This document shows, in pieces, positions 4,168 to 53,052 of a DNA stretch of 60,083 bases. Positions within the stretch are counted from its first letter, which is position 1, and each line of letters opens with the position of its first letter. Source of the DNA: Anaerolineae bacterium (GTDB lineage: Bacteria > Chloroflexota > Anaerolineae > B4-G1); contig DAOTYA010000045.1 of NCBI GenBank assembly GCA_034435075.1, positions 1 to 60,083 on the forward strand, in the 5' to 3' direction. Below the pieces are notes generated by a model, which ran no database searches, was not told the origin of the DNA, and saw only the letters and a program-made list of their open reading frames with translations. Made by a program: the position numbers and the translations under genes.

Positions 4168-4286
4168 TGCGAGGTTTTTCCTGTGCGGTTGGTGCCTTCC
4201 ATCAAACCTGGAAGGGCGTGCAACCAGGCGCAGCCACGCTGCGCTCAGGCCAGCGGGCCAAAACGCACCGGCATTGCTCCCGCCTG

Positions 4287-4484
4287 TCAGCGACGGCTGT
4301 AGATGCGGAGGAAATGGGCCAGAGAACGATCGTAGGTGCGCTCTGCTTCAGGAGGGAAGAGGCAACCTGGCAGCTCTTTCATACGCCAGTGATAGTGGAG
4401 ACACTCACAGCATTTGCCCTTTCTTGAACAGGGTTCGTATGAGCAGGTGCATCTGGCCAGATTAGTCTCAATTTGGCACTCCAT
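4287..4484 (-). CDS. small cysteine-rich protein (DUF6485-like)
   Basis: 65 aa with CTCSYEPCSRKGKCCECLHYH, remembered as a conserved small Cys-rich family. Confidence 0.55.
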   Translation of the reverse strand: MECQIETNLARCTCSYEPCSRKGKCCECLHYHWRMKELPGCLFPPEAERTYDRSLAHFLRIYSRR

Positions 4485-4539
4485 CCTACGCTGCCTCCTG
4501 ATAAGTGGTGGTCACACCCGGGCGTGGTATTGCCCGGAT

Positions 4540-4587
4540 GGACACGGAGACACGGCGTTATTGCAAAATCCGTGTCACTCCGTGTCC
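4540..4587 (-). terminator. long hairpin downstream of acpP (no U-tract)
   Basis: GGACACGGAG.CACGG ... CCGTG...CTCCGTGTCC imperfect inverted repeat, 32 nt after the acpP stop. Confidence 0.35.
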
Positions 4588-4618
4588 GATCAGCACTATG
4601 ATGTTGATACCGGGAATT

Positions 4619-4855
4619 CTAAACCATGCGTTTCTCGATGTAAGCCACCGCGTCACCCACAGTCCTGATCTTCTGTGCTTCTTCGTCAGAAATCGTCCCC
4701 CCGAATTGTTCCTCGAACTCCATAATCAGCTCTACCAGGTCGAGTGAGTCTGCCTCCAGGTCTTCTCGGAAGCGGGCTTCTGGTGTCACTCGCTCAGGCT
4801 CAACGCCCAGCAATTCAACAATAATAGCTTTGACTTTCTCGAAAACTTCTGACAT
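4619..4855 (-). CDS. acpP: acyl carrier protein
   Basis: 78 aa with the phosphopantetheine site [20 protein letters not shown]. Confidence 0.95.
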
Positions 4856-5282
4856 GGCATCCTCCTTAAAGATTTTTTAGCGACTGTTCAGCAAGGTGCT
4901 TTCTCACCACCGGGACACGAGGAAACAGGGAAATGAGCATCATGACCGCATTTCCAAAAGCCCTGGTTTCCCGCTATCCCTGTGGTAAGGCCCACCCGGC
5001 TGGCCAGTTGACTTAAACGGCTATAATTCTACCTGCGGCGGCCTGTTTGTCAAATGTGCTTTCCGGCCACTGCCTGCCGGTTGGGGGACCGTCCCGGTTA
5101 TGCCTGGCCTCTGGCTTTCCTGTCACCCTGGGTGCAGACTTGACAATCTGCCTGCAAGGCGACTGCCAATTGACACTTGGCCGAATCAGCACAGTCGGGT
5201 TATAATAAGACACAGTATCAACATACAGGCGCGACATATCTCCTCACCAGTCCGCCCATCAGTCACATTCAGGAGGTGTACC

Positions 5283-18162: not shown

Positions 18163-21100
18163 ATGGAAGAAACGGAAGGCAACTTGAGAGCCTCTTTCGG
18201 ATCGGACCGGCGTGGAGGTGCAAACATCAGCCCCTTTGAGCTGAGCGCTGATCTGAGGGCTTCGCTCAAGACAACACTGGATACCATTTTAACTACCACC
18301 CGCCAGCTCGTCTACTATGATGTAGCCGAGATCACGCTGTGGGATGAGGAACAGCGCTGTTGCGTAACTCAGGGATGGGGTGGTGACCGCGCTTACGCTA
18401 CGGAGGCAGGCGGTGTTTATCGCATTGACGAGGGCTACACCGGCTGGATCATCCGTCACCAGCGCTTCCTGTTGGTGCGTGATGTGGAGGCCAGGCGGGA
18501 CGTGCGCCCAAAATTGGACCTGCCCACGTATCCTTTCCAGTCTTACGTGGGCATCCCGCTCAAAAGCCAGGGCCGCTTCATTGGTACATTAGAATTGGCC
18601 TGCTATCACAAGGACGCCTGGTCGGAGCGTGACCTGGAGATCCTCCACGCCGTTGCCAGCCAGGCTGTGGTAGCCATTGAAAATGCTTATCTCTATGCAC
18701 AGACAAGGCGACATGCAGAGCAGCAGGCCGGCCTGGCCCGTATCGCTGCTCTGGCTGCCTCCACCCTCGATCTGGATGAGCTGCTTGAGCAGGTAATCGG
18801 AGAGACCCTCAGGCTGCTGGAAGCGGAAAGAGGCGCCCTCCTCCTCTACAACGAACAACGAAGTCGCCTGACGGTCCGTTACCTGACCCCTCCCGATGAC
18901 AAACGCACAGTGCCTTTATCATTTTGCCTTAAGCCCGAGCAATCGCTCCTGGCAAGGAGTGGCAGTTACTTATGCAACAATCCTGCTCAGGACCCGCATA
19001 TCACCGGGGTGTGCCGGGATTATATCCAGGCACTGGGCTTCCATAACTTCGTCGGAGTGGCATTGCGCCTGAAAGAGTCGCTTCTGGGTGAACTATACGT
19101 GGGAGATCGCAGGGGCGGATTTGGTAACCAGGAAGTCCAGTTGCTTCAGACAGTGACCGGTTATATAGCAACCGCCATCGAGAACGCCCATCTCTACGAT
19201 GAGATGCGCCGTCGGGTGTCCGAACTCAGTTCGCTGATGTCTGTCTCGGCTGCCGTCAGTTCCTCGCTGGACCTGGAGCGCGTTTTGCAGGCCATCGCCT
19301 CAGCTACAGTTGAGGTGATAGGATGCCAGCGGTCAGCGATCTTCGTGTTGGATGAAAGCGCGCAGGTGCTACGTCTGGCCATAACACAGGGACTGAGCCA
19401 GGAATATGCAGCCCGGTCGCAGGTACTTCCTCTGGAACCAGGTGGGCGTGCACACGCGGCGGTTACGGGGCAGCCACTGATAGTGCACGATGTGCAGGCT
19501 GATGATAGCCTGTTGGCCTATGCTCCGATGTCCGTCCAGGAGGGTTTCCGTGCCTTCGCCGACCTCCCTCTCAAGCGGGCTGACCGGGTTATTGGTATGC
19601 TTTCCGCCATGTTTGTCGAGCCTCACTACTTCTCCGCACGAGAAGTGGAATTGTTGACAGCTTTTGCCGATCAGGCGGCCATCGCCATAGAAAATGCTCG
19701 TCTGTACGCCCAGGCGGATGAGGAGTTGAGGCATCGAGAGGAAATATTGCGCAGACGCAACCGTGAACTGGCCACGCTCTACGAGGCTGCCAATACAATC
19801 AATTCCAGCCTCTCCCTGGATGATGTGCTCAACAGCGTGGCTTATCAGATGATGCGGTTGCTGAACTCAAAGGGATGCCTGGTCTCGCTGTGGGATCGCC
19901 AGCATAATGTACTTGAGCCTCTGGTAGCATACGGGGCAGCGCGGCCGGAGACGCCGGGTCAGGCCTGTTACCCGGACGTTTCATCACGCTCCGTATTGGA
20001 GACACGCCGCCCGCTGACCGTACGCAGAGATGCCCAGACCGTTTTGCTGCTACCCCTGATCACCAGAAATCAGGTGATTGGGATCGCTGAACTGATTGAT
20101 GGGGGCGAGGCCCGCGCTTACGCCCCAGAGGAGATCCGCCTCGCTGAGAGCCTGGCAGCGCAGGCGGCAGTTGCCATCGAGAACGCCCGTCTCTACGAGC
20201 AGGCTCAGCAGGAAATAGCCGAGCGCACGCGGGCGGAGGAAGCACTGCGGCGGCTTCACAACGTCAGCCGCGAGATCAATGCCACGCTTCATCTGGAAAG
20301 AATCCTACAACTTGTCCTTGAGGAGGCCACACATCTGAGCCAGGCCTCGCATGGCACCATCCTTCTCAGACACTCACCACAAGATGCACTCTACCTGGCG
20401 GTCTGCACAGGATATACGGAGGAAGATAAGGAGCGTCTGAACGCCCTCCTCCAGAAGCCAGAGGCCCATCCTGTCCTGCAAGCGATCTTGCGCTCCCCTG
20501 CTCCGCTGCTTGTCCCGGATACCTCTCTCCAGCCAGAGCGGTGTGGGTTCAGGCCAGAAACCCGCTCCCTGCTGATTGTACCGATATTCTATCAGGACGC
20601 ACTGGCGGGCATGATCTTCCTGGAGAGTGATGAGCAGGGAGCCTTCAACAGGGGCACGCTTGAGTTTGTGGAGGGGCTGGCCGCGCAGGCAGCCACGGCT
20701 ATTGGCAATGCTCAGCGATATCAGGAACAGTTGCAGCGTGGGGAGTTGCTGCGCCGTCGGGCGGAGAGACTGGCGGCTGTGTTGGAGATCAGCCGGGCAC
20801 TGCGTTCTGACCGCCCTCTGGAGAAGATCCTCGAGGAGATCGCATACGCCATTCAAGAGAGTGTGGGGTTCAATCTGGTGCTGATCGGCATTTTAGAAGG
20901 AGACCCTCCCTATCGCAGGCGTGTGGCGGCGGCTGGCGTTCCACTCGCCGAGTTCGAGCGGATGAAGCAGGTCCGTGAGCCCTGGTCAGCACTGGCCGAC
21001 CTGATGACATCCGAGTTCCGTGTCAGTCAGAGCTATTATATCCCTGCCGAGCATCAGGCGCGCTGGCGGGGGCGTATCAGCGTGTATGAAGCACCGCCAG

Positions 21101-23517
21101 AAGGGGAGACGGTCACGAGTGTTTCCCGCCAGCCTGGTCGCTGGCATCCCCACGACCTGCTGCTTGTCCCGCTGATTGGGCCGGGAGGTGACATACAGGG
21201 GCTGCTTTCGGTGGATCAGCCGATTGATGGCCGCGTGCCCGACCTGGAGACTATCGAGGCACTGGAGATCTTTGCCGCTCAGGCTGCCCTGGCCATCGAG
21301 AACGCTCGCCTGGTAGAGGCGCTGGAACGCCGCGCTGAGACGCTGGCCATGTTCAATGAGGTCTCGCGCTCTACCACAACCCATCTCGAGACCGCCAATC
21401 TCGACGACGTGCTCAACTCAGTGGTCAGAATGATCCTGCGGCCGGTCAAAAGCGATCTGAGCACGATCTTTCTGCTGGACCCCGGGAGCGGGAAATATCT
21501 ATGCAGGGCAGCGCATGGCATTACCGGTGGCGAACCATCGTCCACGCTGGAGGAGCTTATCGGTATGGTGGCCAGAAGCGGTATGCCTCTGGCGCTTGAG
21601 GACCTGGAGCGAGACGCCAGGACAGCAACGCCGGGTATGGATGGCATACGTTCGGCAGCCCTGGCTCCCCTCACGGTGAGCCATCAGGTGGTGGGCGTGC
21701 TGTGTGTGGGACGCAGAGCACCTGATCCCTTCTCTCCCGCCGAATTGGGCACACTCTCCGCGCTGGCCGACCAGGTGGCCGTGGCAGTGGCCAATATCAG
21801 ACTTTTCGATGAAGTACGCCGCTTCTCTCAGGAGCTGGAAAGGCGGGTGGAGGAACGCACCCAGGAGTTGGCCCAGGCATTACAGGAACTGCGGAAGGAG
21901 CGGGATCGGGTCGAGATATTGTACCGCATCACCGCGCAGTTGTCGGCCAGCCTTGACCTGGACTACGTGCTGACTCAGGCGCTTGGGCTGGTCGCCGGAG
22001 CGGTGGAGGCAGAACGCGCTTCCGTGCTGATGCTCGCTCACGATTCCGACCGCTTTATCTACCGCGCCTCCTATGGGAACGATACCCGGCTGCCTCCCGG
22101 AGGTCGCCTGACCAACTTTTCACGCGAGGAGGGGCTGGCCGGCTGGGTGGTCAGACATCGCCAGGCCGTCATCATCCCTGATATGCGTGAGGATCAGCGC
22201 TGGGTAAGTTCGTGGGAGGGCGAGCGTGACTACCGCTCGGTGCTGGCTGTGCCGCTTACCATCGGAGAACAGGTGCTGGGGGCACTCTTCCTGTTCCATT
22301 CACAGCCCGGCCATTTTCACGAAGAACACAAAATGTTGGTGGAGACGGCAGCCCTGCAGATGGCCAATGCGATCAATAATGCAGAACTTTACCGCCTCAT
22401 CTTCGATCAGGCCGAGCAACTGGGGAACATGCTCAAGACGCAGAAGGTAGAGGCGGCCAAGAGCCAGGCCATCCTGGAGGCCGTTGCCGATGGAGTGATT
22501 GTTGTGGATGCCAGCGGCAAGATCGTGCTCTTCAACGCAGCAGCGGAGCGCATCCTGGAACTGCCACGAGAAAAAGCGCTGGGCCGCATGAGCAGCGATA
22601 TGCTGGGCCTGTATGGCGGTCAGGCTCGCGAATGGATGGAGGCAGTGAACAGGTGGGCCACCCGGCCAGGCACCTATGACGCTGAGGAATACCTGGCGGC
22701 CAGAGTGGAGATCGGAGGGCGGATCGTCAGCGTCCATCTGGCACCGGTGCTGATGGGCGACGAGTTTCTCGGCACCGTCTCGGTCTTCCGCGATGTCACT
22801 GCTGAGGTGGAGGCCGAGCGGGCTAAGACGGAGTTCGTCTCCACGGTATCCCACGAGCTGCGCACCCCGATGACCTCGATTAAGGGCTACGTAAAACTGC
22901 TCCTGATGGAGATGGCAGGAGGGCTGACGGAGGGGCAACGCCATTTCCTCTCGATCATCAACGCGAACGTGGATCGCCTGACCAACCTGGTCAACGACCT
23001 GCTCGACATTTCACGTATCGAGAGCGGGCGTCTGGCTATCTCCCCGCGCCCGATCAAAGTGGACGAGGTGATCGAGCAGGTTGTCGCAGAAATGCACGCC
23101 CGCGCCACAGGCCGGGGGTTGACGCTCCACGCAGAGCTGCCCCCGGCGCTTCCCAGAGTGGTCGCAGACCCCGATCGGGTGGCTCAAATCCTGACCAACC
23201 TGATAGCCAATGCCTGCAACTACACCCCCAGCGGCGGGGAGGTGTGTGTCATGGCCCATGCGAACGGTGGAGAGGTGCGCGTTGCAGTGCGAGATACCGG
23301 CATCGGCATAGCTCCGGAGAACCTGGATAAGATTTTCGAGCGGTTCTTCCGTGCCGATGATGAGCTGGTACAGGAGGTCCCCGGTACCGGGCTGGGACTG
23401 GCCATCGTCCGTTCGCTGGTGGAGCTGCAGGGAGGTCGTATCTGGGTGGAGAGTAAACCAGGGGCAGGCAGCACCTTCACGTTCACACTTCCCGTTGCCG
23501 GGGAGAGCGGTGTTTGA
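18163..23517 (+). CDS. giant sensor histidine kinase: 8 tandem GAF domains, PAS, HisKA, HATPase_c
   Basis: Eight modules each close with A[IV]xNA.LY-type helices (AIENAYLY, AIENAHLY, AIENARLY x2, AIGNAQRY, AIENARLV, AVANIRLF, AINNAELY). PAS (ILEAVADGVIVVD), H-box SHELRTPMTSIKGY, N/G boxes (NLIANACNYT, DTGIGI, GTGLGLAIV). Confidence 0.93.
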   Translation: MEETEGNLRASFGSDRRGGANISPFELSADLRASLKTTLDTILTTTRQLVYYDVAEITLWDEEQRCCVTQGWGGDRAYATEAGGVYRIDEGYTGWIIRHQRFLLVRDVEARRDVRPKLDLPTYPFQSYVGIPLKSQGRFIGTLELACYHKDAWSERDLEILHAVASQAVVAIENAYLYAQTRRHAEQQAGLARIAALAASTLDLDELLEQVIGETLRLLEAERGALLLYNEQRSRLTVRYLTPPDDKRTVPLSFCLKPEQSLLARSGSYLCNNPAQDPHITGVCRDYIQALGFHNFVGVALRLKESLLGELYVGDRRGGFGNQEVQLLQTVTGYIATAIENAHLYDEMRRRVSELSSLMSVSAAVSSSLDLERVLQAIASATVEVIGCQRSAIFVLDESAQVLRLAITQGLSQEYAARSQVLPLEPGGRAHAAVTGQPLIVHDVQADDSLLAYAPMSVQEGFRAFADLPLKRADRVIGMLSAMFVEPHYFSAREVELLTAFADQAAIAIENARLYAQADEELRHREEILRRRNRELATLYEAANTINSSLSLDDVLNSVAYQMMRLLNSKGCLVSLWDRQHNVLEPLVAYGAARPETPGQACYPDVSSRSVLETRRPLTVRRDAQTVLLLPLITRNQVIGIAELIDGGEARAYAPEEIRLAESLAAQAAVAIENARLYEQAQQEIAERTRAEEALRRLHNVSREINATLHLERILQLVLEEATHLSQASHGTILLRHSPQDALYLAVCTGYTEEDKERLNALLQKPEAHPVLQAILRSPAPLLVPDTSLQPERCGFRPETRSLLIVPIFYQDALAGMIFLESDEQGAFNRGTLEFVEGLAAQAATAIGNAQRYQEQLQRGELLRRRAERLAAVLEISRALRSDRPLEKILEEIAYAIQESVGFNLVLIGILEGDPPYRRRVAAAGVPLAEFERMKQVREPWSALADLMTSEFRVSQSYYIPAEHQARWRGRISVYEAPPEGETVTSVSRQPGRWHPHDLLLVPLIGPGGDIQGLLSVDQPIDGRVPDLETIEALEIFAAQAALAIENARLVEALERRAETLAMFNEVSRSTTTHLETANLDDVLNSVVRMILRPVKSDLSTIFLLDPGSGKYLCRAAHGITGGEPSSTLEELIGMVARSGMPLALEDLERDARTATPGMDGIRSAALAPLTVSHQVVGVLCVGRRAPDPFSPAELGTLSALADQVAVAVANIRLFDEVRRFSQELERRVEERTQELAQALQELRKERDRVEILYRITAQLSASLDLDYVLTQALGLVAGAVEAERASVLMLAHDSDRFIYRASYGNDTRLPPGGRLTNFSREEGLAGWVVRHRQAVIIPDMREDQRWVSSWEGERDYRSVLAVPLTIGEQVLGALFLFHSQPGHFHEEHKMLVETAALQMANAINNAELYRLIFDQAEQLGNMLKTQKVEAAKSQAILEAVADGVIVVDASGKIVLFNAAAERILELPREKALGRMSSDMLGLYGGQAREWMEAVNRWATRPGTYDAEEYLAARVEIGGRIVSVHLAPVLMGDEFLGTVSVFRDVTAEVEAERAKTEFVSTVSHELRTPMTSIKGYVKLLLMEMAGGLTEGQRHFLSIINANVDRLTNLVNDLLDISRIESGRLAISPRPIKVDEVIEQVVAEMHARATGRGLTLHAELPPALPRVVADPDRVAQILTNLIANACNYTPSGGEVCVMAHANGGEVRVAVRDTGIGIAPENLDKIFERFFRADDELVQEVPGTGLGLAIVRSLVELQGGRIWVESKPGAGSTFTFTLPVAGESGV

Positions 23518-35936: not shown

Positions 35937-38900
35937 CTACCGGCGTGCGGAGGAGCGGTGGCGCGTCGGCGGGACCGCTTTCTGGTTTACCAGCCGCTGA
36001 AATTCGTAAAGCTTGTTCAACGCCTCCAACGGGGTCATAGAGGTGATGTCGAGGGCCCGGATTTCCTCGATGACCGGATGCTCCTGCACAAAGAGCAATG
36101 GCTGGTAGGGCTGTTGGGCAGGCGTGCCAGGGCGAAACTCGCCGCTCTCCAGACGGGCCAGCAACTCCTCCGCCCGGTTGATGACCGGACGAGGCACTCC
36201 TGCCAGTTGTGCCACGTGTATGCCATAAGAACGGTCGGCACCACCGGGCACAACCTTGTGCAGGAAGATCACGCGGTTCCCCTCCTCAATCACCGCCAGA
36301 TTGTAGTTACGCACAGCCGGAAGCCGGTCGGCTATCTCCGTCAGCTCATGGTAATGGGTGGCGAAAAGCGTGCGTGCCCGTCGCTCCGGGTGATTGTGCA
36401 GATATTCCACCACGGCCCAGGCGATGGAGAGGCCATCGTAGGTGCTGGTGCCGCGCCCGATCTCATCAAGGATAAGCAAACTGCGCGGCGTGGCATGATT
36501 TAGGATGTTGGCCGTCTCTACCATCTCAACCATAAAGGTGGATTGACCCGAGGCAACCTCATCCTGTGCTCCGATGCGCGTGAAGATGCGGTCTACAATG
36601 CCTATATGCGCCCGCTCAGCCGGCACGAAGCTCCCTATCTGCGCCATCAACACGATGAGAGCATTCTGGCGCAGAAACACCGAGTTGTGGCTGACAAACC
36701 CGGCCGCCACGTAGGCGTTCCCATCGGGCACGCTCAAGTCGCACACCTGTCGGACGCCCGCCGGTTCAACTGAGATAACCGTGTCATAAAACAGCCCGTC
36801 GCTCTCCAGGGAGAGGACATCGCGCTCGTGAGGGTCAACATGGAGCAGCCCTTTGCATACCTGTTTTCCGGGCGATCGGAAGCCGATCCTGTCGTAAAAG
36901 GCCAGGGCATCCCTGCCATACATGGTAAGCTGACAGGAGGGACGCCCGGAGACCTTGCCGATGTGCAGAGAACTGATGACGCCGTGATTAAGCAGCAACA
37001 ACTGCACCTGACGCACCAACCGCGGTGAGGGGGCAGAGAAGGTGATGTGGCCATCGTGTGCGTCTGCGCTGGCGGAAGCATCGAAGAGACCCTGCAAGAA
37101 AGCAACTGTTATCTCCCTGGGAGATTGGAGAATCACTTTGGGTATCTCTTTCTCGCAGGAACGAACGTATCCCAACCCCAGCCCCGCCATAAACCGACGG
37201 ACGTCTGCACTGGCAACACTCAAGGTCCAGATGCTGCCACCGCGTGTGGACTCTGGAAGCGGCTGACACCCGAAGCACAGTTGAGCGACTCTGCAAAATT
37301 CCCGGGCTGTAAATTCATCCTGTAGTGTGATGACAATGCGCCTGCGATACTTCAGATTCCCACTGCCGGTAAGCAGGCCGGTGAGGTATGCCAGCTCAGG
37401 TGTTAACTTATCAGGATACCGGCAACCATCTCCGGCTGGTACCTCAATGTCCAGTGTCAGTTTGCCACCCCACAGCCCGGTATCGGGCTTGAGGGCCGCA
37501 AAATCCCCCAGTGCCAGCTCACTCAGCGGCACCCACCCTGTTGTGCCATCCGGCCTGCGCACCCACAGACGATGTTCAGGTGTTCCGATCAGCTCATATC
37601 CCCTGTTCGTCGTTACCCGCAAAACAGGTGCACAGCCACCGTCATAGAAATGGGATGTCGTCGTATGTCCGTTCTTTCCGCACACGCCCGTCTGGAGGGT
37701 CGTGAAGGTGTGTGCCTGAGCCTGCGCGGGCCGCAGGTCTCCAATGCGCAGCAAACCGTGTTCGGTGCAGAGCAGGGTGTCCTCGTCAACACATTTGCCG
37801 GCCATGTTCGGCCCGGTAATGATCAGGATACGCTCTTCCTGGTTCAGGCGCAGATCGTTGGGTACGAAAGGTTCATCCTGAAGCGTCTGCTCTACCACGG
37901 GATGCCGGCCGGCAATAATTTCGAGCGTATCATCATCGCCGATGGTGGGGCGCACATAGCGGTTGCGCACAGCGACCTCCGCCAGAGCCGCTGCCACGTC
38001 TATGGATGCCAGGGTGCGCGCTGTATGGAGCAGTCTCTTTCCCTGGGCACTGATCTGCCGGCAGAGGTCATGAAACAGGCGTGTTTCGACCTCAACCTGC
38101 CGTTCCTCCGCATGCAGGATCAGGGATTCGTACTCCTTCAGCTCGGGTGTGATAAACCGCTCAGCGTTGACCAGCGTCTGTTTACGGATGTAATCGGCAG
38201 GCACGGAGTCCAGATTCGCTTTGGTTACCTCCAGATAGTAACCAAACACCTTGTTGTAGCCAACCTTGAGGCTTTTGATACCTGTGCGCTCACGCTCTCG
38301 TCTCTCCAGCCCGGCGATCCATTGCCTGGCTTCCTGGGAGGCGGTGACGATGCCATCCAATTCGGCAGAGAAGCCGGGGCGGATCACGCCGCCGGCGGAG
38401 AGGCCGGCCGGTGGGTCATCCACAATAGCCGAGGCGATCAGCCCGGCAACGTCACTGCACGGGTCGAGTTCAGAGGCCTGGGGCAGGAAGCCGGCCAGGG
38501 TCTCCACCAGCCCGGGCAACGCTTCAAGAGCCCTGCGGATGCCGGGCAGGTCACGGGGTGTGGCGATCCCGGTCAGCACCCGGTTGGTCAAACGCTCCAG
38601 GTCGGGCATATTTTTGAGCAGCTCGCGCGTGCGTCCCCGGACGACGGCGTCATTGTAAAAGGCCTCCACTTCATCGAGGCGTCGCTCCAGCTCAACCCGG
38701 TCCAGCAGGGGCTGGGCAAGCCGCGTACGCAGCAGCCGTCCCCCCATCGGTGTGAGCGTCAGATCGAGGACGCCCAACAGCGATCCGCGCGTCTTGCGCT
38801 CGCGGATCGTCTCGGTCAGCTCAAGGTTGCGGCGCGTGGCCGGGTCGAGGGTCATAAAGCGAGCGGTGGAGTAGGTGCTGAGAGTTGTGATGTTGGCCAG

Positions 38901-39653
38901 CAATCCCTTGCCGGTGTCGCGCAGGTAGTGGATGATGGCCCCTGCAGCCTGCAGCGCCAGCGGTTTACCCGCGCATCCGAAGCCGTCCAGTGTGGCCACG
39001 CCGAAGTGGTCCAGCAGTGTCTGACGGGCCAGCCCCAGCTCAAAACGATAGGCCGGCAGCGGAGTCAGGTGCAGGTTGGGAAACAATGTGCGCAGTCCGG
39101 CAAGCGCGGGTAGCTCATCGGCTGACTCGGACACCAGACACTCTCTTGGCTGGAGGCGTGCCAGCTCCTCGACGACTTCGTCCGTACTCAATTGAGTGGT
39201 GGCGAACTCGCCGGTGGTGATGTCTGCATGGGCCAGGCCGGCCTGTTCCCCTTCGACCACCAGCGCGGCCAGGTAGTTGGGCCGCCGTTCGTCCAGGAGC
39301 GCCGGTTCAACGACCGTACCGGGGGTCACCACACGCGTGACCTCGCGAGCAACCAGCCCGGCGCCGGAGACCTCGCCCACCTGTTCGGCGATAGCAACGC
39401 GGTAACCTTTTTCGATCAGGCGCGCGATATAGCTCTCGACGGCGTGATACGGAACCCCGGCCATAGGTACACGCTGGGTCTTGGACACCGGCCGCGAGGT
39501 GAGTACCAGGTCCAGTTCGCGAGCAGCGATCTCCGCATCCTTATCGAAGGTCTCGTAAAAGTCACCCAGTCGGAAGAATACGATGGCATCCGGATGCCGG
39601 GCTTTGATCTGCAGATACTGCTGGCGAACGGGAGTTACGTCAGACATGGCCAC
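35937..39653 (-). CDS. mutS: DNA mismatch repair protein MutS, interrupted by an intein
   Basis: Mismatch-binding N-terminus (TPVRQQYLQIKARHPDAIVFFRLGDFYETF), clamp/core region and ATPase (TGPNMAGK | intein | SVFLRQ.., DEIGRGTSTYDG, TLFATHYHEL). 1238 aa versus roughly 870 for typical bacterial MutS. Confidence 0.95.
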   Translation of the reverse strand: MAMSDVTPVRQQYLQIKARHPDAIVFFRLGDFYETFDKDAEIAARELDLVLTSRPVSKTQRVPMAGVPYHAVESYIARLIEKGYRVAIAEQVGEVSGAGLVAREVTRVVTPGTVVEPALLDERRPNYLAALVVEGEQAGLAHADITTGEFATTQLSTDEVVEELARLQPRECLVSESADELPALAGLRTLFPNLHLTPLPAYRFELGLARQTLLDHFGVATLDGFGCAGKPLALQAAGAIIHYLRDTGKGLLANITTLSTYSTARFMTLDPATRRNLELTETIRERKTRGSLLGVLDLTLTPMGGRLLRTRLAQPLLDRVELERRLDEVEAFYNDAVVRGRTRELLKNMPDLERLTNRVLTGIATPRDLPGIRRALEALPGLVETLAGFLPQASELDPCSDVAGLIASAIVDDPPAGLSAGGVIRPGFSAELDGIVTASQEARQWIAGLERRERERTGIKSLKVGYNKVFGYYLEVTKANLDSVPADYIRKQTLVNAERFITPELKEYESLILHAEERQVEVETRLFHDLCRQISAQGKRLLHTARTLASIDVAAALAEVAVRNRYVRPTIGDDDTLEIIAGRHPVVEQTLQDEPFVPNDLRLNQEERILIITGPNMAGKCVDEDTLLCTEHGLLRIGDLRPAQAQAHTFTTLQTGVCGKNGHTTTSHFYDGGCAPVLRVTTNRGYELIGTPEHRLWVRRPDGTTGWVPLSELALGDFAALKPDTGLWGGKLTLDIEVPAGDGCRYPDKLTPELAYLTGLLTGSGNLKYRRRIVITLQDEFTAREFCRVAQLCFGCQPLPESTRGGSIWTLSVASADVRRFMAGLGLGYVRSCEKEIPKVILQSPREITVAFLQGLFDASASADAHDGHITFSAPSPRLVRQVQLLLLNHGVISSLHIGKVSGRPSCQLTMYGRDALAFYDRIGFRSPGKQVCKGLLHVDPHERDVLSLESDGLFYDTVISVEPAGVRQVCDLSVPDGNAYVAAGFVSHNSVFLRQNALIVLMAQIGSFVPAERAHIGIVDRIFTRIGAQDEVASGQSTFMVEMVETANILNHATPRSLLILDEIGRGTSTYDGLSIAWAVVEYLHNHPERRARTLFATHYHELTEIADRLPAVRNYNLAVIEEGNRVIFLHKVVPGGADRSYGIHVAQLAGVPRPVINRAEELLARLESGEFRPGTPAQQPYQPLLFVQEHPVIEEIRALDITSMTPLEALNKLYEFQRLVNQKAVPPTRHRSSARR
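36684..37793 (-). mobile_element. 370-aa class-1 intein with LAGLIDADG-type homing-endonuclease domain, inserted in the MutS Walker A motif
   Basis: Cys1 (TGT, 37793-37791) follows GPNMAGK. Block B is GTPEHRLWV. LAGLIDADG-like helices are LAYLTGLLTGSGNL and VAFLQGLFDASASA. Blocks F/G are VCDLSVPDGNAYVAAGFVSHN (Asn, 36686-36684), followed by Ser+1. Confidence 0.88.
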
Positions 39654-39662
39654 GGTGAAACG

Positions 39663-40088
39663 CTACTTTCGCTGGCTGGCAACAACGCTATGGCGCAGGT
39701 GAAAGGCAATCAGGATGATGATCAGCAGCATCCCCACAGCAAGGAGGCTGCCCGAATGCGCGTCAGCGCCGCTCTGGGGCAGGAGAGGTACAGGCGTGGC
39801 AGTTGCCGGAGGTGGTAAGGTGGCTTCGGCTCTGGTCTGCTCTGTGGGGGACGGCACTATCGGTGCTGTCGGTGTGATCGCTGTGGGAACAGGTGTATCC
39901 GCAGGCACAGGCGACGCCTCGGGCGTGTACGTGGACTCCGGCGTGTCCGTGGGCGCAGGCGACGCCTCGGGCGTGTACGTGGGCTCCGGCGTGCTGGTGA
40001 ACCCAAGCCCGGGCCTTGCCCCGGCATAGACAATATTTAACAGGCAAAGGGCCACAACAATTGCAATGACAGGATAAACTCTGCGCAT
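39663..40088 (-). CDS. secreted Pro/Thr-rich repeat protein with LPxSG-type C-terminal anchor signal
   Basis: Signal peptide (VIAIVVALCLLNIVYA), PE[PS]TYTPEASP[AV]P[TA]DT repeats, then LPQSG, a hydrophobic helix (LLAVGMLLIIILIAF) and a basic tail (HLRHSVVASQRK). Confidence 0.6.
   Translation of the reverse strand: MRRVYPVIAIVVALCLLNIVYAGARPGLGFTSTPEPTYTPEASPAPTDTPESTYTPEASPVPADTPVPTAITPTAPIVPSPTEQTRAEATLPPPATATPVPLLPQSGADAHSGSLLAVGMLLIIILIAFHLRHSVVASQRK
39907..39993. repeat. 2 x 48-nt tandem repeat inside the CDS
   Basis: CAGGCGACGCCTCGGGCGTGTACGTGG[A/G]CTCCGGCGTG occurs twice with a 48-nt period. Confidence 0.85.
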
Positions 40089-47432: not shown

Positions 47433-47505
47433 GCGGGCGTGGTTCAGTTGGTAGAACGTCTCCTTGCCAAGGAGAAGGCCACGGGTTCGAGTCCCGTCGC
47501 CCGCT
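47433..47505 (+). tRNA. tRNA-Gly (anticodon GCC)
   Basis: Hand-folded cloverleaf. Acceptor GCGGGCG/CGCCCGC, D arm GTTC/GAAC, anticodon stem TCTCC/GGAGA with loop TTGCCAA, T arm ACGGG/CCCGT with loop TTCGAGT, discriminator T. CCA is not encoded. Confidence 0.93.
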
Positions 47506-47512
47506 CTGGAAG

Positions 47513-50070: not shown

Positions 50071-50232
50071 GATAAAAGCAACTTTCCCCGCGATGGATGG
50101 AATGGCCGGCCCGCTGACAACGCCTCATGTAACAGATTTGCCCGATGATTGGTTTCCCCGCCACCTCCTGGCGTCTGGCCGATTGAGTCCCCCAATGAAC
50201 CACTGGATACCAGCTACGGAGAAAGGAGTGTA

Positions 50233-53052
50233 ATGGAAAAAATTTTCAAAATCACAACTGCGTGTATGGTCGTTTTGTCGGTTATGCTGATGCCGGTTAC
50301 ATCGCCATTCCCCGCGGCTGCGCAGGGAGAAAATCCGCCACAAGCGTTCACAGTGAATGCTCCCGCAGCCACAGCCTCGCTTCACAATCCAACCTTCGAT
50401 AACCACGACTGGTACCAGTTTCATGAGCGCTATCAGAAAAGTTATCTGACAGGTTCGTGGCTTCCTGATGATGATAATAACGTGGGTAATAATATCCCAC
50501 CCAATATCCTGCAGGACTGGCGGTTGTGGTACCTGCGCGGCACAATCCCTGTTGAAACTGACCCGGAGCAAACTTATGCCCAAAACATTGAGGCTGTTCA
50601 GGTCCGCACATATTGGGACGGTAAGCACCTGGCCGGCCTCTATCAGGTGATATACAATACCACACCCTGCCGCACTTACAGATTCCAGATGTACGCCCAG
50701 TCCAGGCCAGAAGGCAGCGATGACTCACTGGTCGCCCTGCAGGTGGGCATTGACCGGGCGGGATGGCATCCCAACTCTGCGACGGATCCGGCCGTTGGCA
50801 CTTTTCCGTCCACGACCGTATGGGGTACTTCCAGCAACGCGTACAAGTGGTACTACGGGCTGTTGTCGGTGGAAGCCGATGCGCTGGGGAACTCCATCAC
50901 CGTGTTCACCTATGCTGACGCCAACGGCGGGCGATCGCACCGGATATTGTGGGATACCGGCTCGTTCGCCGAGGTGCCGCGCACTGCCAATCTGATTGAC
51001 GCCACCCGGCCGCTGCCGGCGCCCACCGGTGGTATCAACAATATCTCCGCGGTGCCCTCAGCGAACAGCGCTGTAATCTCGTGGGATACGGGGACAGTTT
51101 CAACTTTGGGACAGGTGCTGTACCGGCGGGTAACCACTCCACCGGGAAGCTGGCAGTACTCAGCTCTACTCAACTGGAGTACGGCGCATCAGGTTACCCT
51201 GACCGGCTTACAAAGCGACTCCGTTTACGAGTATGTTGTGGTGTCTTATGGATACATCGGCGGTACCTGCAAAGTGATCGTCTCCGAGACCGCGCCACCA
51301 CGTCAGTTCACCACATGGACCCCTGTGGCTTCTGTAGCAATCAGCGGCCCGACGACCGGGTTGCCACGGACCAGCTACAATTTTGTGGCAACCGTCAGCC
51401 CTGCTGCTGCCACGCTCCCGATCACCTATACCTGGCAGGCCACCGATCAGGCAGAGGTGACGCGTGTGGTATACAGCACCAGCGATCAGGCGGCTTTTAC
51501 CTGGAATACCATCGGCACAAAGGAGGTCATTGTGACCGCCAGGAATGCAGGTGGTATGGTCTCCGCTCGCCACTATATCACGATTATCGGCGACGAGTAT
51601 GAGCCTGACGACATGTGCACACAGGCTCGTTCCATATCTACCGACGGAACGGTCCAGGTCCACAATTTCCACGTCTCGACCGACGTGGATTGGGTGCGCT
51701 TCGACGCCGAGGCTGGCAAGACCTATCTTATTGAAGGGCTGACTCCCCACGGATCTGATGCACATCTGTATCTGGGACTCTACTCAGATTGTTTTACACT
51801 CAGCGGGGGGCAATATAATGAATTCAGCCCCGATGTGCGTATGCTGTTCACCCCTACTCAGAATAAGAGCTATTACCTCTACCTGCGCCATGCCTTCCCT
51901 GATCAGCAGGTGTCGCGGGCGACTTATCGCCTCTCTGTACGCGGGTTAGACGCTGTGAAGGCGCCTGGGGCTGTGATCCTGGTCGCGGGTAAATACCAGG
52001 AAGGCACACCGGTTCAGGCGAGCATCCACCAGGCCACCGACGCGATCTATCGGTTCTTTCTCACCCGTGGCTATGACGGTGAGCACATTCACTATCTGGC
52101 AGCCGACCCCACGCTGGACCCTGACGGAGACGGCACGCCCGATGTTGATGAGGCGCCCACGAAAAACAATTTGTACCGTGCCATAACATCATGGGCGATT
52201 GGTCGCGTGGACGAAGAGCACCCGCTCGTAGTTTACATGGTGGGCAGCGGCGGCTCCGGCTACTTTTACCTGAACGGGAGCACGGAAAAGGTCTACCCAA
52301 CCCAGCTACACTACTGGCTGGGTGCCCTGGAAGCTCTTTACTCGGGGCTGGAGATCAGCATTGTCATAGACTCTCCCAAGGCTGGCAGCTTCGTTGATGC
52401 GTTAAGTAAGTCGGGGCGGGTGGTCATCGCTTCCACCGATGCCTGGCAACTGGCCTGGGCTGCCGGGGATGGCACGCTCTTCTCAAGCCACTTTCTTACC
52501 TCTCTGAGCCGGGGGCTGAGCCTGCGCGATAGCTTCGAGAAGGCCAGGCTTGCAGTGGAGAATGTCCAGCCCGTACAAACGCCCTGGCTTGAGGATAACG
52601 GGAATGGAACACCCAACGAGGAGACAGAGGGCACAATAGCGGGGCAGCGTTTCTTTGCCACTCATACCAGCATACTCAGCGATGTGGTAAAGTGGCCGCC
52701 CTACATCGCCAACGCGGAGATCGGCCGCATTGTCAGCGGAAGGGGCATAATCACCGCGGAGGTGCGTGATGACGCCGGTGTGGTGGGGGTGTGGGCCGCG
52801 ATATACCCACCGACTTACACGCTTCCTCCATCCACCGGGGAAGACCTGGTGCTGGATGCTGTCCCTACCGTGACGCTGATGCACGCAGGGGGCAATCTCT
52901 ACGCCGCGGAGTATGCGGGCTTTTCCAGCACGGGGATCCCGATGAGCCGCATCGTGGTTTACGCTGTGGATGGGGATGGCCTGGAGGGCACCCCCTGGGT
53001 GATATGGGGAGGCCGCATTTACCTGCCGCTGGTCTTGCGCGGGCAGCAATAA
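50233..53052 (+). CDS. secreted multidomain protein: FN3-like, PKD-like, PPC (pre-peptidase C-terminal) and legumain (C13)-like domain with substituted catalytic dyad
   Basis: Start at MEKIFKITTACMVVLSVMLMPV (signal). FN3-like region (AVISWDTGT..VTLTGLQSDSVYEY), PKD-like region (YNFVATVSP..YTWQA..VTARNAGG), PPC (EPDDMCTQA..DVDWVRFDA..YRLSVRG), C13-like region (VVYMVGSGGSGYFYL ... ISIVIDSPKAGSF). Ends IYLPLVLRGQQ. Confidence 0.8.
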   Translation: MEKIFKITTACMVVLSVMLMPVTSPFPAAAQGENPPQAFTVNAPAATASLHNPTFDNHDWYQFHERYQKSYLTGSWLPDDDNNVGNNIPPNILQDWRLWYLRGTIPVETDPEQTYAQNIEAVQVRTYWDGKHLAGLYQVIYNTTPCRTYRFQMYAQSRPEGSDDSLVALQVGIDRAGWHPNSATDPAVGTFPSTTVWGTSSNAYKWYYGLLSVEADALGNSITVFTYADANGGRSHRILWDTGSFAEVPRTANLIDATRPLPAPTGGINNISAVPSANSAVISWDTGTVSTLGQVLYRRVTTPPGSWQYSALLNWSTAHQVTLTGLQSDSVYEYVVVSYGYIGGTCKVIVSETAPPRQFTTWTPVASVAISGPTTGLPRTSYNFVATVSPAAATLPITYTWQATDQAEVTRVVYSTSDQAAFTWNTIGTKEVIVTARNAGGMVSARHYITIIGDEYEPDDMCTQARSISTDGTVQVHNFHVSTDVDWVRFDAEAGKTYLIEGLTPHGSDAHLYLGLYSDCFTLSGGQYNEFSPDVRMLFTPTQNKSYYLYLRHAFPDQQVSRATYRLSVRGLDAVKAPGAVILVAGKYQEGTPVQASIHQATDAIYRFFLTRGYDGEHIHYLAADPTLDPDGDGTPDVDEAPTKNNLYRAITSWAIGRVDEEHPLVVYMVGSGGSGYFYLNGSTEKVYPTQLHYWLGALEALYSGLEISIVIDSPKAGSFVDALSKSGRVVIASTDAWQLAWAAGDGTLFSSHFLTSLSRGLSLRDSFEKARLAVENVQPVQTPWLEDNGNGTPNEETEGTIAGQRFFATHTSILSDVVKWPPYIANAEIGRIVSGRGIITAEVRDDAGVVGVWAAIYPPTYTLPPSTGEDLVLDAVPTVTLMHAGGNLYAAEYAGFSSTGIPMSRIVVYAVDGDGLEGTPWVIWGGRIYLPLVLRGQQ

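What the first reader, a model, noticed from the sequence alone, without database searches (positions are those of the whole stretch)
36684..37793. MutS split inside its P-loop by an intein that looks splicing-competent but endonuclease-dead
- **Seen, size and junctions:** the mutS ORF is 1238 aa. The Walker A reads TGPNMAGK, continues as CVDEDTLLCTEHG..., and resumes after ...YVAAGFVSHN with SVFLRQNALIVLMAQIGSFVPA.
- **Seen, intein residues:** the 370-aa insert carries every class-1 intein element: Cys1, block B TPEH, block F Asp (VCDLSV), terminal HN and a +1 Ser. It also has two LAGLIDADG-like helices.
- **Seen, endonuclease site:** in both helices the eighth (metal-binding acidic) position is Ser (LTGLLTGSG and LQGLFDASA).
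- **Inference:** the homing endonuclease is probably inactive and the intein fixed.
- **Inference:** because the ATPase P-loop is physically split, mismatch repair depends entirely on splicing. Conditional splicing (redox at Cys1, temperature) would give a post-translational mutator switch.
- **Limit:** I do not recall MutS among the classical intein hosts and cannot check this here.
Basis: partly seen in the sequence, partly recalled or inferred. Interest (0 to 1): 0.8.

Follow-up and report, generated by a model that had tools for sequence, protein, structure and literature searches.

The report
Endonuclease-dead intein splitting MutS P-loop
The mismatch-repair gene mutS of this Anaerolineae-like bacterium is interrupted, exactly inside its ATP-binding loop, by a self-splicing protein element (intein) whose built-in DNA-cutting domain has decayed; it is a real but ordinary example of a well-known kind of selfish element, in a host protein for which I found no published description in bacteria or archaea.

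Summary
The mutS ORF (35937..39653, minus strand) carries a 370-aa insert (36684..37793) between Walker A Lys and Ser: GPNMAGK|C…SHN|S.

- **Identity:** Pfam and NCBIfam intein models pass their cut-offs. An AF2 model (pLDDT 91) matches the archaeal P-loop intein TliVMA (TM 0.76).
- **Family:** the same insertion site is occupied in at least 35 other MutS sequences, from about ten bacterial phyla, three archaeal MAGs and Chromatium okenii DSM 169. Of the 120 closest MutS relatives, 118 are empty, with a clean GK|S junction.
- **Dead endonuclease:** most family members keep both catalytic Asp residues. The window has Ser at both, lacks a ~70-aa accessory domain, and deviates at 18 of 63 family-conserved endonuclease columns (others mostly 0-8).
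- **Splicing:** all splicing residues are intact. Across three sister lineages dN/dS is 0.05-0.07 (exteins), 0.15-0.18 (Hint) and 0.33-0.42 (endonuclease domain). MutS is therefore under selection, so the intein must splice (inferred).
- **Precedent:** this repeats the published TliVMA (active) versus PhoVMA (degenerate) pair.

The "mutator switch" idea has no support here. Verdict: a new member of a known kind, of moderate interest.

The parts
35937..39653 (-). mutS precursor ORF. It is 1238 aa from the GTG start; the probable true start is the ATG at 39647, giving 1236 aa.
   Evidence: ORF. NCBIfam MutS equivalog scores 1041 bits (cut-off 480) in two stretches. Pfam finds MutS_I to MutS_V. 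Homologues start at MSDV.
37794..39653 (-). N-extein: MutS domains I-IV and the start of domain V, ending in Walker A ...ITGPNMAGK
   Evidence: dN/dS with the C-extein is 0.05-0.07.
36684..37793 (-). Class-1 intein, 370 aa, Cys1 to Asn370
   Evidence: Pfam and NCBIfam intein models pass their cut-offs. AF2 pLDDT is 91. Foldseek matches the TliVMA intein 7qss/7qsu at E 2e-26, TM 0.76.
37464..37793 (-). Hint (splicing) domain, N-terminal part (intein residues 1-110). It holds Cys1 and block B GTPEH (37572..37586).
   Evidence: Family alignment. The window deviates at 3 of 26 conserved columns. dN/dS of the Hint domain is 0.15-0.18.
36858..37463 (-). Degenerate LAGLIDADG homing-endonuclease domain (intein residues 111-312)
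   Evidence: LAGLIDADG_3 gives one stretch at 42 bits, against two stretches at 86 bits in relative P0008. The window deviates at 18 of 63 conserved columns. dN/dS is 0.33-0.42.
37359..37385 (-). LAGLIDADG motif 1, LTGLLTGSG. Ser144 stands where the family has Asp (GDG).
37071..37097 (-). LAGLIDADG motif 2, LQGLFDASA. Ser240 stands where the family has Asp (DxDG), and Gly241 is replaced by Ala.
36795..36857 (-). Remnant linker (intein residues 313-333) left after loss of the ~70-aa accessory domain, which is a four-helix bundle in full-length relatives
   Evidence: The region is 91 aa in most relatives and 23 aa here. pLDDT is below 50 at residues 322-327. The P0008 model shows helices at 336-404.
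36684..36794 (-). Hint domain, C-terminal part (intein residues 334-370). It holds block F VCDLSV (36729..36746) and block G FVSHN (36684..36698).
   Evidence: The window deviates at 0 of 9 conserved columns. Motif coordinates.
35937..36683 (-). C-extein. It starts with the Walker A Ser (+1 nucleophile), SVFLRQNALI..., and holds Walker B LLILDEIGRGTS and the MutS C-terminus.
   Evidence: Pfam MutS_V aligns from residue 989 to 1169.

Best explanation
A class-1 intein with a nested LAGLIDADG homing-endonuclease domain sits between Lys and Ser of the MutS Walker A motif (GPNMAGK|S). It belongs to a horizontally mobile family of 'MutS P-loop inteins'.

**How it works.** In this lineage the element is in the late, degenerate stage of the homing cycle.
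- The endonuclease has lost both metal-binding Asp residues and its accessory DNA-recognition domain, so it can no longer home.
- The Hint domain still splices. After translation, Cys1 attacks the Lys620-Cys1 peptide bond. The N-extein is transferred to Ser+1. Asn370 cyclises and releases the 41-kDa intein. The result is an intact ~96-kDa MutS with a restored P-loop.

**Shown versus inferred.**
- Shown: the anatomy, family membership, motif loss, domain loss and selection pattern.
- Inferred: that splicing takes place, that the endonuclease is inactive, and that the unspliced precursor cannot bind or hydrolyse ATP.
For: **Position and identity**
- Junctions and coordinates are as reported.
- Intein HMMs pass their curated cut-offs.
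- The AF2 model has pLDDT 91 and pTM 0.92. Its best PDB matches are HEN-containing inteins: TliVMA, PhoVMA, PI-PkoII, PI-PfuI and PI-SceI.
- The spliced sequence aligns without a gap to E. coli MutS.

**Family**
- 13 of the top 150 representatives at 50% identity, and 22 GTDB species genomes, carry an intein at the identical GK|C…HN|S site of MutS.
- Some inteins are more alike than their host genes. L007 versus L010: intein 72% identical, exteins 48% and 62%. This points to lateral transfer.
- 118 of the 120 closest MutS relatives are empty.

**Dead endonuclease**
- Most of the 37 family members keep GDG and DxDG; the window has Ser at both positions.
- A 91-aa region is reduced to 23 aa. In the full-length relative it folds as a four-helix domain.
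- The window deviates at 18 of 63 conserved HEN columns but at only 3 of 35 Hint columns (Fisher p = 0.02).
- Beyer & Iwai 2022 (PMC8966425) showed experimentally that the analogous PhoVMA intein, which lacks the active-site Asp residues, is nuclease-inactive, and that grafting the TliVMA LAGLIDADG active sites restores cleavage.

**Splicing competence**
- C1, T71, H74, D352, H369, N370 and S+1 are identical in three sister lineages.
- dN/dS is 0.05-0.07 for the exteins and 0.15-0.18 for the Hint domain.
Against: - No experiment shows splicing.
- The HEN domain is not evolving neutrally: dN/dS is 0.33-0.42, with p < 0.001 against neutrality. It therefore still does something, perhaps only folding support for the Hint domain.
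- Inactivity is inferred from residue identity, not measured.
- The Hint/HEN domain boundaries were set by eye from the alignment.
- The genome-collection survey was capped at 80 loci, so family size and host range are lower bounds.
Confidence: 0.85

Rival explanations
1. Conditional protein splicing as a mutator switch. The intein is retained because it makes MutS activity depend on a signal such as redox state, temperature or DNA damage. Under stress the precursor accumulates, mismatch repair falls and the mutation rate rises.
For: - The P-loop is physically split, so the precursor should lack ATPase activity.
- Conditional splicing is documented for other P-loop inteins. One example is the RadA intein, which is stimulated by ssDNA (Lennon et al. 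2016, PMC5238726, abstract seen).
- Novikova et al. 2016 (PMC4760082) argue that P-loop clustering of inteins reflects selective retention.
- The intein, including its dead HEN domain, is under purifying selection.
Against: - There is no direct evidence of any kind.
- +1 is Ser, so a Cys1-Cys+1 disulfide trap is impossible.
- The extra Cys residues (9, 38, 54, 351 and others) are not conserved in the family. Cys351 is Tyr in the sister lineage L083.
- 118 of the 120 closest relatives do without the intein.
- Purifying selection on the Hint domain is equally expected for a purely selfish element lodged in an essential site.
Confidence: 0.07
2. The endonuclease domain has been domesticated. Although it cannot cut, it is kept for a new sequence-specific DNA-binding or protein-binding role, either in the precursor or as the free 41-kDa intein.
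For: - HEN dN/dS is 0.33-0.42, significantly below 1 in all three pairwise comparisons.
- The fold is predicted intact, with pLDDT mostly above 85.
- Foldseek also matches WhiA, a LAGLIDADG-derived transcription factor.
Against: - The accessory DNA-recognition domain has been lost.
- 18 of 63 family-conserved positions have changed.
- HEN dN/dS is 2-3 times that of the Hint domain (Fisher p = 0.27, 0.02 and 0.01 in the three comparisons).
- Constraint is simply explained by the need for the nested domain to fold so that the two Hint halves can meet. The degenerate PhoVMA intein likewise keeps an intact HEN architecture (PMC8966425).
Confidence: 0.06
3. The insert no longer splices, and mutS is a disguised pseudogene in a natural mutator lineage.
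For: Splicing has not been demonstrated. The intein is more diverged from its nearest relative (50% with L003) than the exteins are (70% and 84%).
Against: - There are no stops or frameshifts.
- Extein dN/dS is 0.05-0.07, including 0.066 for the C-extein downstream of the intein.
- All splicing residues are invariant in three lineages.
- The Phe-X-Glu (GDFYETF) and Walker B (LLILDEIG) motifs are intact.
Confidence: 0.02

Closest known systems
Archaeal V-ATPase subunit A P-loop inteins at the VMA-b site: TliVMA (active HEN, 429 aa) and PhoVMA (degenerate HEN, 376 aa) (Beyer & Iwai 2022, PMC8966425; PDB 7qss, 7qsu, 7qst)
   Same: - They are the best sequence and structure matches.
- They are class-1 inteins with a Hint + LAGLIDADG HEN + accessory-domain architecture, inserted in the Walker A loop of an ATPase.
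- The PhoVMA case parallels the window: the active-site Asp residues are lost, with degenerative mutations and deletion, while the HEN architecture stays intact. I did not read a splicing result for PhoVMA in the passages seen.
- The full-length MutS intein P0008 matches full-length TliVMA (TM 0.72/0.74), which makes it the 'TliVMA-like' state.
   Different: - The host protein is bacterial MutS, not V-ATPase.
- Sequence identity is only about 19-22%.
- +1 is Ser.
- The accessory domain of the MutS family is a four-helix bundle of unknown relation to the VMA accessory domains.
- Nothing about the MutS inteins has been tested experimentally.
Other P-loop inteins of DNA-metabolism ATPases: DnaB-b, MCM-a, RFC-a and RecA/RadA (Novikova et al. 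2016, PMC4760082)
   Same: - They insert in the Walker A motif of an ATPase involved in replication or repair.
- 61 N-junctions among the top 150 relatives of this intein end in GK|C.
- NCBIfam models of intein-containing V-ATPase A and RFC-small align from about 10 residues upstream of Cys1.
   Different: MutS is not mentioned in the main text of that survey, and its supplementary tables could not be read.
MutS-like inteins of Mimiviridae (Green, Novikova & Belfort 2018, PMC5784728; e.g. Moumouvirus AEX62724)
   Same: These are the only MutS-family inteins I found in the literature. They are also class-1 LAGLIDADG inteins.
   Different: - There is no significant sequence similarity beyond the LAGLIDADG motif (BLASTP E = 0.036 over 34 residues).
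- The host is a viral MutS-like protein.
- Their insertion site was not determined here.

Membership tests
Class-1 intein (Hint domain, canonical four-step splicing) | N-terminal nucleophile Cys/Ser at position 1 | tested here: met
   Cys1 follows Lys620. It is present in every family member whose N-terminal junction is in the data.
Class-1 intein (Hint domain, canonical four-step splicing) | Block B Thr-x-x-His | tested here: met
   GTPEH at residues 70-74. H74 is invariant in the family alignment.
Class-1 intein (Hint domain, canonical four-step splicing) | Block F Asp and block G His-Asn at the C-terminus | tested here: met
   VCDLSV contains D352 and the intein ends in H369-N370. All three are invariant.
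Class-1 intein (Hint domain, canonical four-step splicing) | +1 nucleophile (Cys/Ser/Thr) on the C-extein | tested here: met
   Ser+1 is the Walker A Ser of MutS, present at all 37 junctions.
Class-1 intein (Hint domain, canonical four-step splicing) | In-frame insertion in a conserved host site, with intein-less orthologues showing a clean junction | tested here: met
   E. coli MutS aligns without a gap. The empty allele P0159/L084 reads GPNMAGK|SVFIRQ. 118 of the 120 closest homologues are empty.
Class-1 intein (Hint domain, canonical four-step splicing) | Hint fold | tested here: met
   The AF2 model has pLDDT 91. Foldseek matches TliVMA, PI-SceI and the Mxe GyrA intein with probability 1.00.
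Class-1 intein (Hint domain, canonical four-step splicing) | Actual protein splicing | not testable with these tools
   Splicing is inferred from dN/dS of 0.05-0.07 on the exteins and 0.15-0.18 on the Hint domain.
Active LAGLIDADG homing endonuclease | Acidic (Asp/Glu) metal ligand at the C-terminal end of each LAGLIDADG helix | tested here: not met
   Ser144 and Ser240 stand where TliVMA has Asp and where most of the family has Asp (or Glu in L067 motif 1).
Active LAGLIDADG homing endonuclease | Two-lobed alpha-beta-beta-alpha-beta-beta-alpha LAGLIDADG fold | tested here: met
   Foldseek matches I-DmoI and I-Tsp061I with TMt about 0.7. Pfam LAGLIDADG_3 scores 42 bits.
Active LAGLIDADG homing endonuclease | Accessory/DNA-recognition domain as in full-length family members | tested here: not met
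   The 91-aa region is reduced to 23 aa. The four-helix domain of the P0008 model is absent.
Active LAGLIDADG homing endonuclease | Site-specific cleavage of the empty allele | not testable with these tools
   This needs an in vitro cleavage assay.
MutS1 mismatch-repair ATPase (host protein) | Domains I-V, the Phe-X-Glu mismatch motif, and Walker A/B after removal of the insert | tested here: met
   NCBIfam MutS equivalog scores 1041 bits (cut-off 480). Pfam finds MutS_I to MutS_V. The GDFYETF and LLILDEIGRGTS motifs are present.
Bacterial intein-like (BIL) domain or class-3 intein (considered) | BIL: no +1 nucleophile, and located in variable, non-conserved proteins. Class 3: WCT triplet and no Cys1/Ser1. 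| tested here: not met
   Cys1, HN and Ser+1 are all present. Block F position 4 is Asp, not Cys. The host site is the most conserved motif of MutS.

The most novel reading that the evidence does not exclude
The degenerate intein is retained because splicing is conditional, so that MutS activity, and hence the mutation and recombination rate, is set post-translationally by an environmental signal. The catalytically dead but still constrained endonuclease domain might act as the sensor or as a DNA-binding module.
Probability: 0.07. Interest if true: 0.85.

Novelty: new member of a known kind. Interest (0 to 1): 0.4.

Why it matters
- **A new host on the list.** This adds the central mismatch-repair ATPase MutS to the prokaryotic proteins invaded by inteins at the Walker A loop. 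Known examples include DnaB, MCM, RFC, RecA/RadA and V-ATPase. The addition strengthens the known pattern.
- **A natural series of states.** The family offers full-length, presumably active members, independently decayed members (window, P0043, L067, L008), and members that lost only the accessory domain (L018, P0014). That makes it a good system for studying the homing cycle.
- **An experimental handle.** MutS loss gives a mutator phenotype that is easy to score. A MutS intein would therefore be a convenient reporter for conditional protein splicing in vivo.
- **An annotation gap.** NCBIfam has 'exception' models for several intein-containing proteins but produced none for MutS here.

Tried and rejected
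- **First protein search.** The word-indexed search with the intein found only 7 hits and missed the window's own cluster. The exhaustive HMMER search was needed to see the family.
- **Own genome.** The window's genome is not among the GTDB species representatives; the best intein hit there was 48% identical.
- **Viral vector.** None of the top 80 viral loci with related inteins is in a MutS gene.
- **Relation to the Mimivirus MutS-like intein.** Rejected: no significant similarity.
- **Co-conversion of extein flanks.** I wondered whether the unusual 'SV' after the junction was carried in with the intein. It was not: the empty allele of the closest relative also reads GK|SVF.
- **Foreign origin by composition.** GC is 0.585 in the intein against 0.600 and 0.625 in the exteins, which is not informative.
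- **The missing accessory region.** Pfam finds no known family for it.
- **Second intein.** There is none in the window.
- **Structure job.** I rebuilt it as A2.
- **Novikova 2016 supplementary tables.** They are not held as text, so I could not check whether MutS appears there.
Full report
**1. The observation**

The window holds one long ORF on the minus strand, 35937..39653, of 1238 aa from a GTG start.

- In its translation GPNMAGK occupies residues 614-620.
- It is followed by CVDEDTLLCTEHG… The insert ends …YVAAGFVSHN at residue 990, and the protein resumes SVFLRQNALIVLMAQIGSFVPA.
- The insert is therefore 370 aa at window 36684..37793, exactly as reported.
- Close homologues all begin two codons later (MSDV…, ATG at 39647), so the real product is probably 1236 aa.

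The insert is not a chance resemblance.

- Pfam Intein_splicing (41 bits, cut-off 35.8) and LAGLIDADG_3 (42 bits, cut-off 22.5) pass their thresholds. So do NCBIfam intein_Nterm and intein_Cterm.
- The rest of the protein is an equivalog-level MutS, scoring 1041 bits against a cut-off of 480 in two stretches that meet at the insert.
- With the insert removed, the ATPase domain aligns without a gap to E. coli MutS across LIITGPNMGGK|STYMRQTALI.
- The element therefore sits between the Walker A Lys and Ser. The Walker A Ser doubles as the +1 splicing nucleophile.

**2. What it is**

An AlphaFold2 model of the insert, built on 13 family sequences, is confident (pLDDT 91, pTM 0.92).

- Its best PDB matches are all endonuclease-containing inteins, led by the Thermococcus litoralis V-ATPase intein (7qss/7qsu, E 2e-26, TM 0.76).
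- PhoVMA, PI-PkoII, PI-PfuI and PI-SceI follow. Free-standing LAGLIDADG enzymes match the middle domain.

An exhaustive HMMER search found 6047 related proteins.

- Among the best 150 representatives, 13 are MutS proteins with an intein at the identical site.
- A scan of one genome per GTDB species added 22 more. All read GPNM(A/S/G)GK|C…HN|S.
- The hosts include Chloroflexota (many Anaerolineae and a Herpetosiphonaceae), Bipolaricaulota, Thermotogae, Latescibacterota, Acidobacteriota, Bacteroidota and Armatimonadota.
- They also include Parabeggiatoa, the cultured Chromatium okenii DSM 169, and three archaeal MAGs: Promethearchaeia, Woesearchaeota and an unclassified archaeon.
- Several inteins resemble each other more than their host genes do. 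L007 versus L010 shows 72% intein identity against 48% and 62% extein identity, as expected for a laterally mobile element.

The site is mostly empty.

- Of the 120 closest MutS relatives of the window (71-95% identical), 118 are 842-949 aa long and intein-free.
- One example is P0159, 81% identical, which reads GPNMAGK|SVFIRQ.
- Those closest hits are annotated as Anaerolineae or Chloroflexi, so the window most likely comes from an Anaerolineae bacterium.

**3. The endonuclease is degenerate**

- In the 37-member alignment, most members keep the canonical acidic residues (…GLLVGDG… and …LQGLFDxDG…).
- The window has Ser at both positions (S144, S240). These are the same columns that align with the Asp residues of TliVMA.
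- The window also lacks about 70 residues between the endonuclease core and block F: the region is 91 aa in most relatives and 23 aa here.
- In a model of the full-length relative P0008, that region is a well-predicted four-helix domain. That model matches full-length TliVMA best (TM 0.72/0.74).
- In the window model, the remnant is the only disordered stretch.
- At columns conserved in at least 85% of the family, the window deviates at 18 of 63 positions in the endonuclease domain but at only 3 of 35 in the Hint domain (Fisher p = 0.02).
- Other members mostly deviate at 0-8 of about 60 endonuclease columns. Only P0043 (25/63) and L067 (22/52) are similar, and both have independently lost catalytic residues and part of the same region.
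- Pfam recognises two LAGLIDADG_3 halves in P0008 (86 bits) but only one in the window (42 bits).

This is the published situation of the two V-ATPase P-loop inteins.

- TliVMA is active. PhoVMA lacks the active-site aspartates and carries degenerative mutations and deletion.
- PhoVMA was shown to be nuclease-inactive, keeps an intact endonuclease fold, and can be reactivated by grafting the LAGLIDADG active sites of TliVMA (Beyer & Iwai 2022, PMC8966425).

**4. Splicing competence and selection**

All residues that define a class-1 intein are present: Cys1, Thr71/His74, Asp352, His369-Asn370 and Ser+1.

The 90%-identity cluster of the window protein has ten members. The full-length and near-full-length ones fall into three sublineages:

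- the window itself (P0283);
- P0158 (L083, syntenic with the window);
- P0278 and its relatives (L165-L167).

All three sublineages keep these splicing residues, both Ser substitutions and the short linker.

Nei-Gojobori dN/dS in the three pairwise comparisons shows a consistent gradient:

| Region | dN/dS |
|---|---|
| Exteins | 0.05-0.07 |
| Hint domain | 0.15-0.18 |
| Endonuclease domain | 0.33-0.42 |

- Exteins, Hint and endonuclease domain are all significantly below neutrality. The endonuclease domain is significantly higher than the Hint domain in two of the three comparisons.
- The 21-codon linker remnant gives noisy values.
- MutS, including the part downstream of the insert, is under strong purifying selection. 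That makes sense only if the intein is removed, so splicing is inferred but not shown.
- The dead endonuclease domain is relaxed but not free. The simplest reason is that it must still fold for the two Hint halves to associate. A residual binding function cannot be excluded.

**5. Mechanism**

- The precursor has Walker A Lys and Ser separated by 370 residues. By established knowledge of P-loop ATPases it should not bind or hydrolyse ATP, so mismatch repair depends on splicing.
- Splicing should follow the canonical four steps, ending with Asn370 cyclisation and an O-to-N shift that restores the GK-S peptide bond.
- The element can no longer home. Its persistence is explained by the cost of imprecise deletion in an essential motif, which is the classical late stage of the homing cycle (Gogarten & Hilario 2006, PMC1654191).

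**6. What is not supported**

The 'post-translational mutator switch' is an attractive idea with precedents for other inteins: RadA (PMC5238726) and the P-loop clustering argument (PMC4760082). Nothing here speaks for it.

- +1 is Ser, so there can be no Cys1-Cys+1 disulfide.
- The additional cysteines are not conserved.
- Nearly all close relatives lack the intein.

**7. Novelty**

- Full-text searches found no paper describing a bacterial or archaeal MutS intein.
- The only MutS-family inteins mentioned are two in Mimiviridae MutS-like proteins (Green et al. 2018, PMC5784728). The one I could read is unrelated in sequence.
- The main text of the Novikova et al. 2016 prokaryotic survey does not mention MutS. 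Its supplementary tables could not be read.
- The sequences themselves are already in public databases with precomputed Pfam intein domains. The biology fits a well-described pattern in every respect.
- This is therefore a new member (a new host and insertion site) of a known kind, of moderate interest. It would be useful mainly as a tractable system for studying the homing cycle and conditional splicing.

Noticed in passing
window 39645..39653 (-): The ORF lister starts mutS at a GTG, but every close homologue starts at the ATG two codons downstream (MSDVTPV…). The product is probably 1236 aa, not 1238.
   Followed up: partly
L018 (Chromatium okenii DSM 169, NZ_NRRQ01000003.1) 4001..5092: A cultured, available strain carries a 364-aa MutS P-loop intein. 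Both catalytic Asp residues are intact, but the accessory region is reduced from 91 to 18 aa. It would be a convenient experimental entry point to this family.
   Followed up: partly
P0043; L067 4001..5080; L008 4001..5245; L012 4001..5311: The endonuclease has decayed independently in other MutS inteins. Motif 1 / motif 2 read S/I in P0043, E/C in L067, G/A in L008 and D/G in L012, with partial deletions of the same accessory region in the first three.
   Followed up: partly
L017, L022, L024 (archaeal MAGs: unclassified archaeon, Promethearchaeia, Woesearchaeota): Bacterial-type MutS1 genes carrying the same P-loop intein occur on contigs binned as archaea, including an Asgard MAG. They form a low-GC-looking subclade with block B TxNH instead of TPEH. 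Binning was not checked.
   Followed up: no
L004 (Bipolaricaulota MAG) and L006 (Thermotogae MAG): Their inteins are 90% identical and their exteins 79% and 96% identical, although the MAGs are labelled as different phyla. This is either recent transfer of the whole gene or inconsistent taxonomic labels.
   Followed up: no
window 39663..40088 (-): Directly upstream of mutS lies a 141-aa ORF with no Pfam hit. It has Pro/Thr-rich near-repeats (TPE(A/S)SP.P.DTPESTYTPEASP) and a hydrophobic C-terminal segment. An ORF of 137-141 aa occupies the same position in the sister contigs L083 and L165-L167.
   Followed up: no
window 18163..23517 (+): A 1784-aa sensor histidine kinase with seven GAF domains, followed by PAS, HisKA and HATPase_c domains.
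   Followed up: no
window 50149..53052 (+) and 2281..4167 (-): Two long ORFs (967 aa and 628 aa) have no Pfam family at E <= 1e-5.
   Followed up: no
window 38250..39450: The 5' third of mutS has GC of about 0.66, against about 0.58 for the rest of the gene including the intein. This is a step in composition inside the N-extein, not at the intein borders.
   Followed up: no
window 47433..47506 (+): The only RNA gene found in the window is a tRNA-Gly (GCC).
   Followed up: yes
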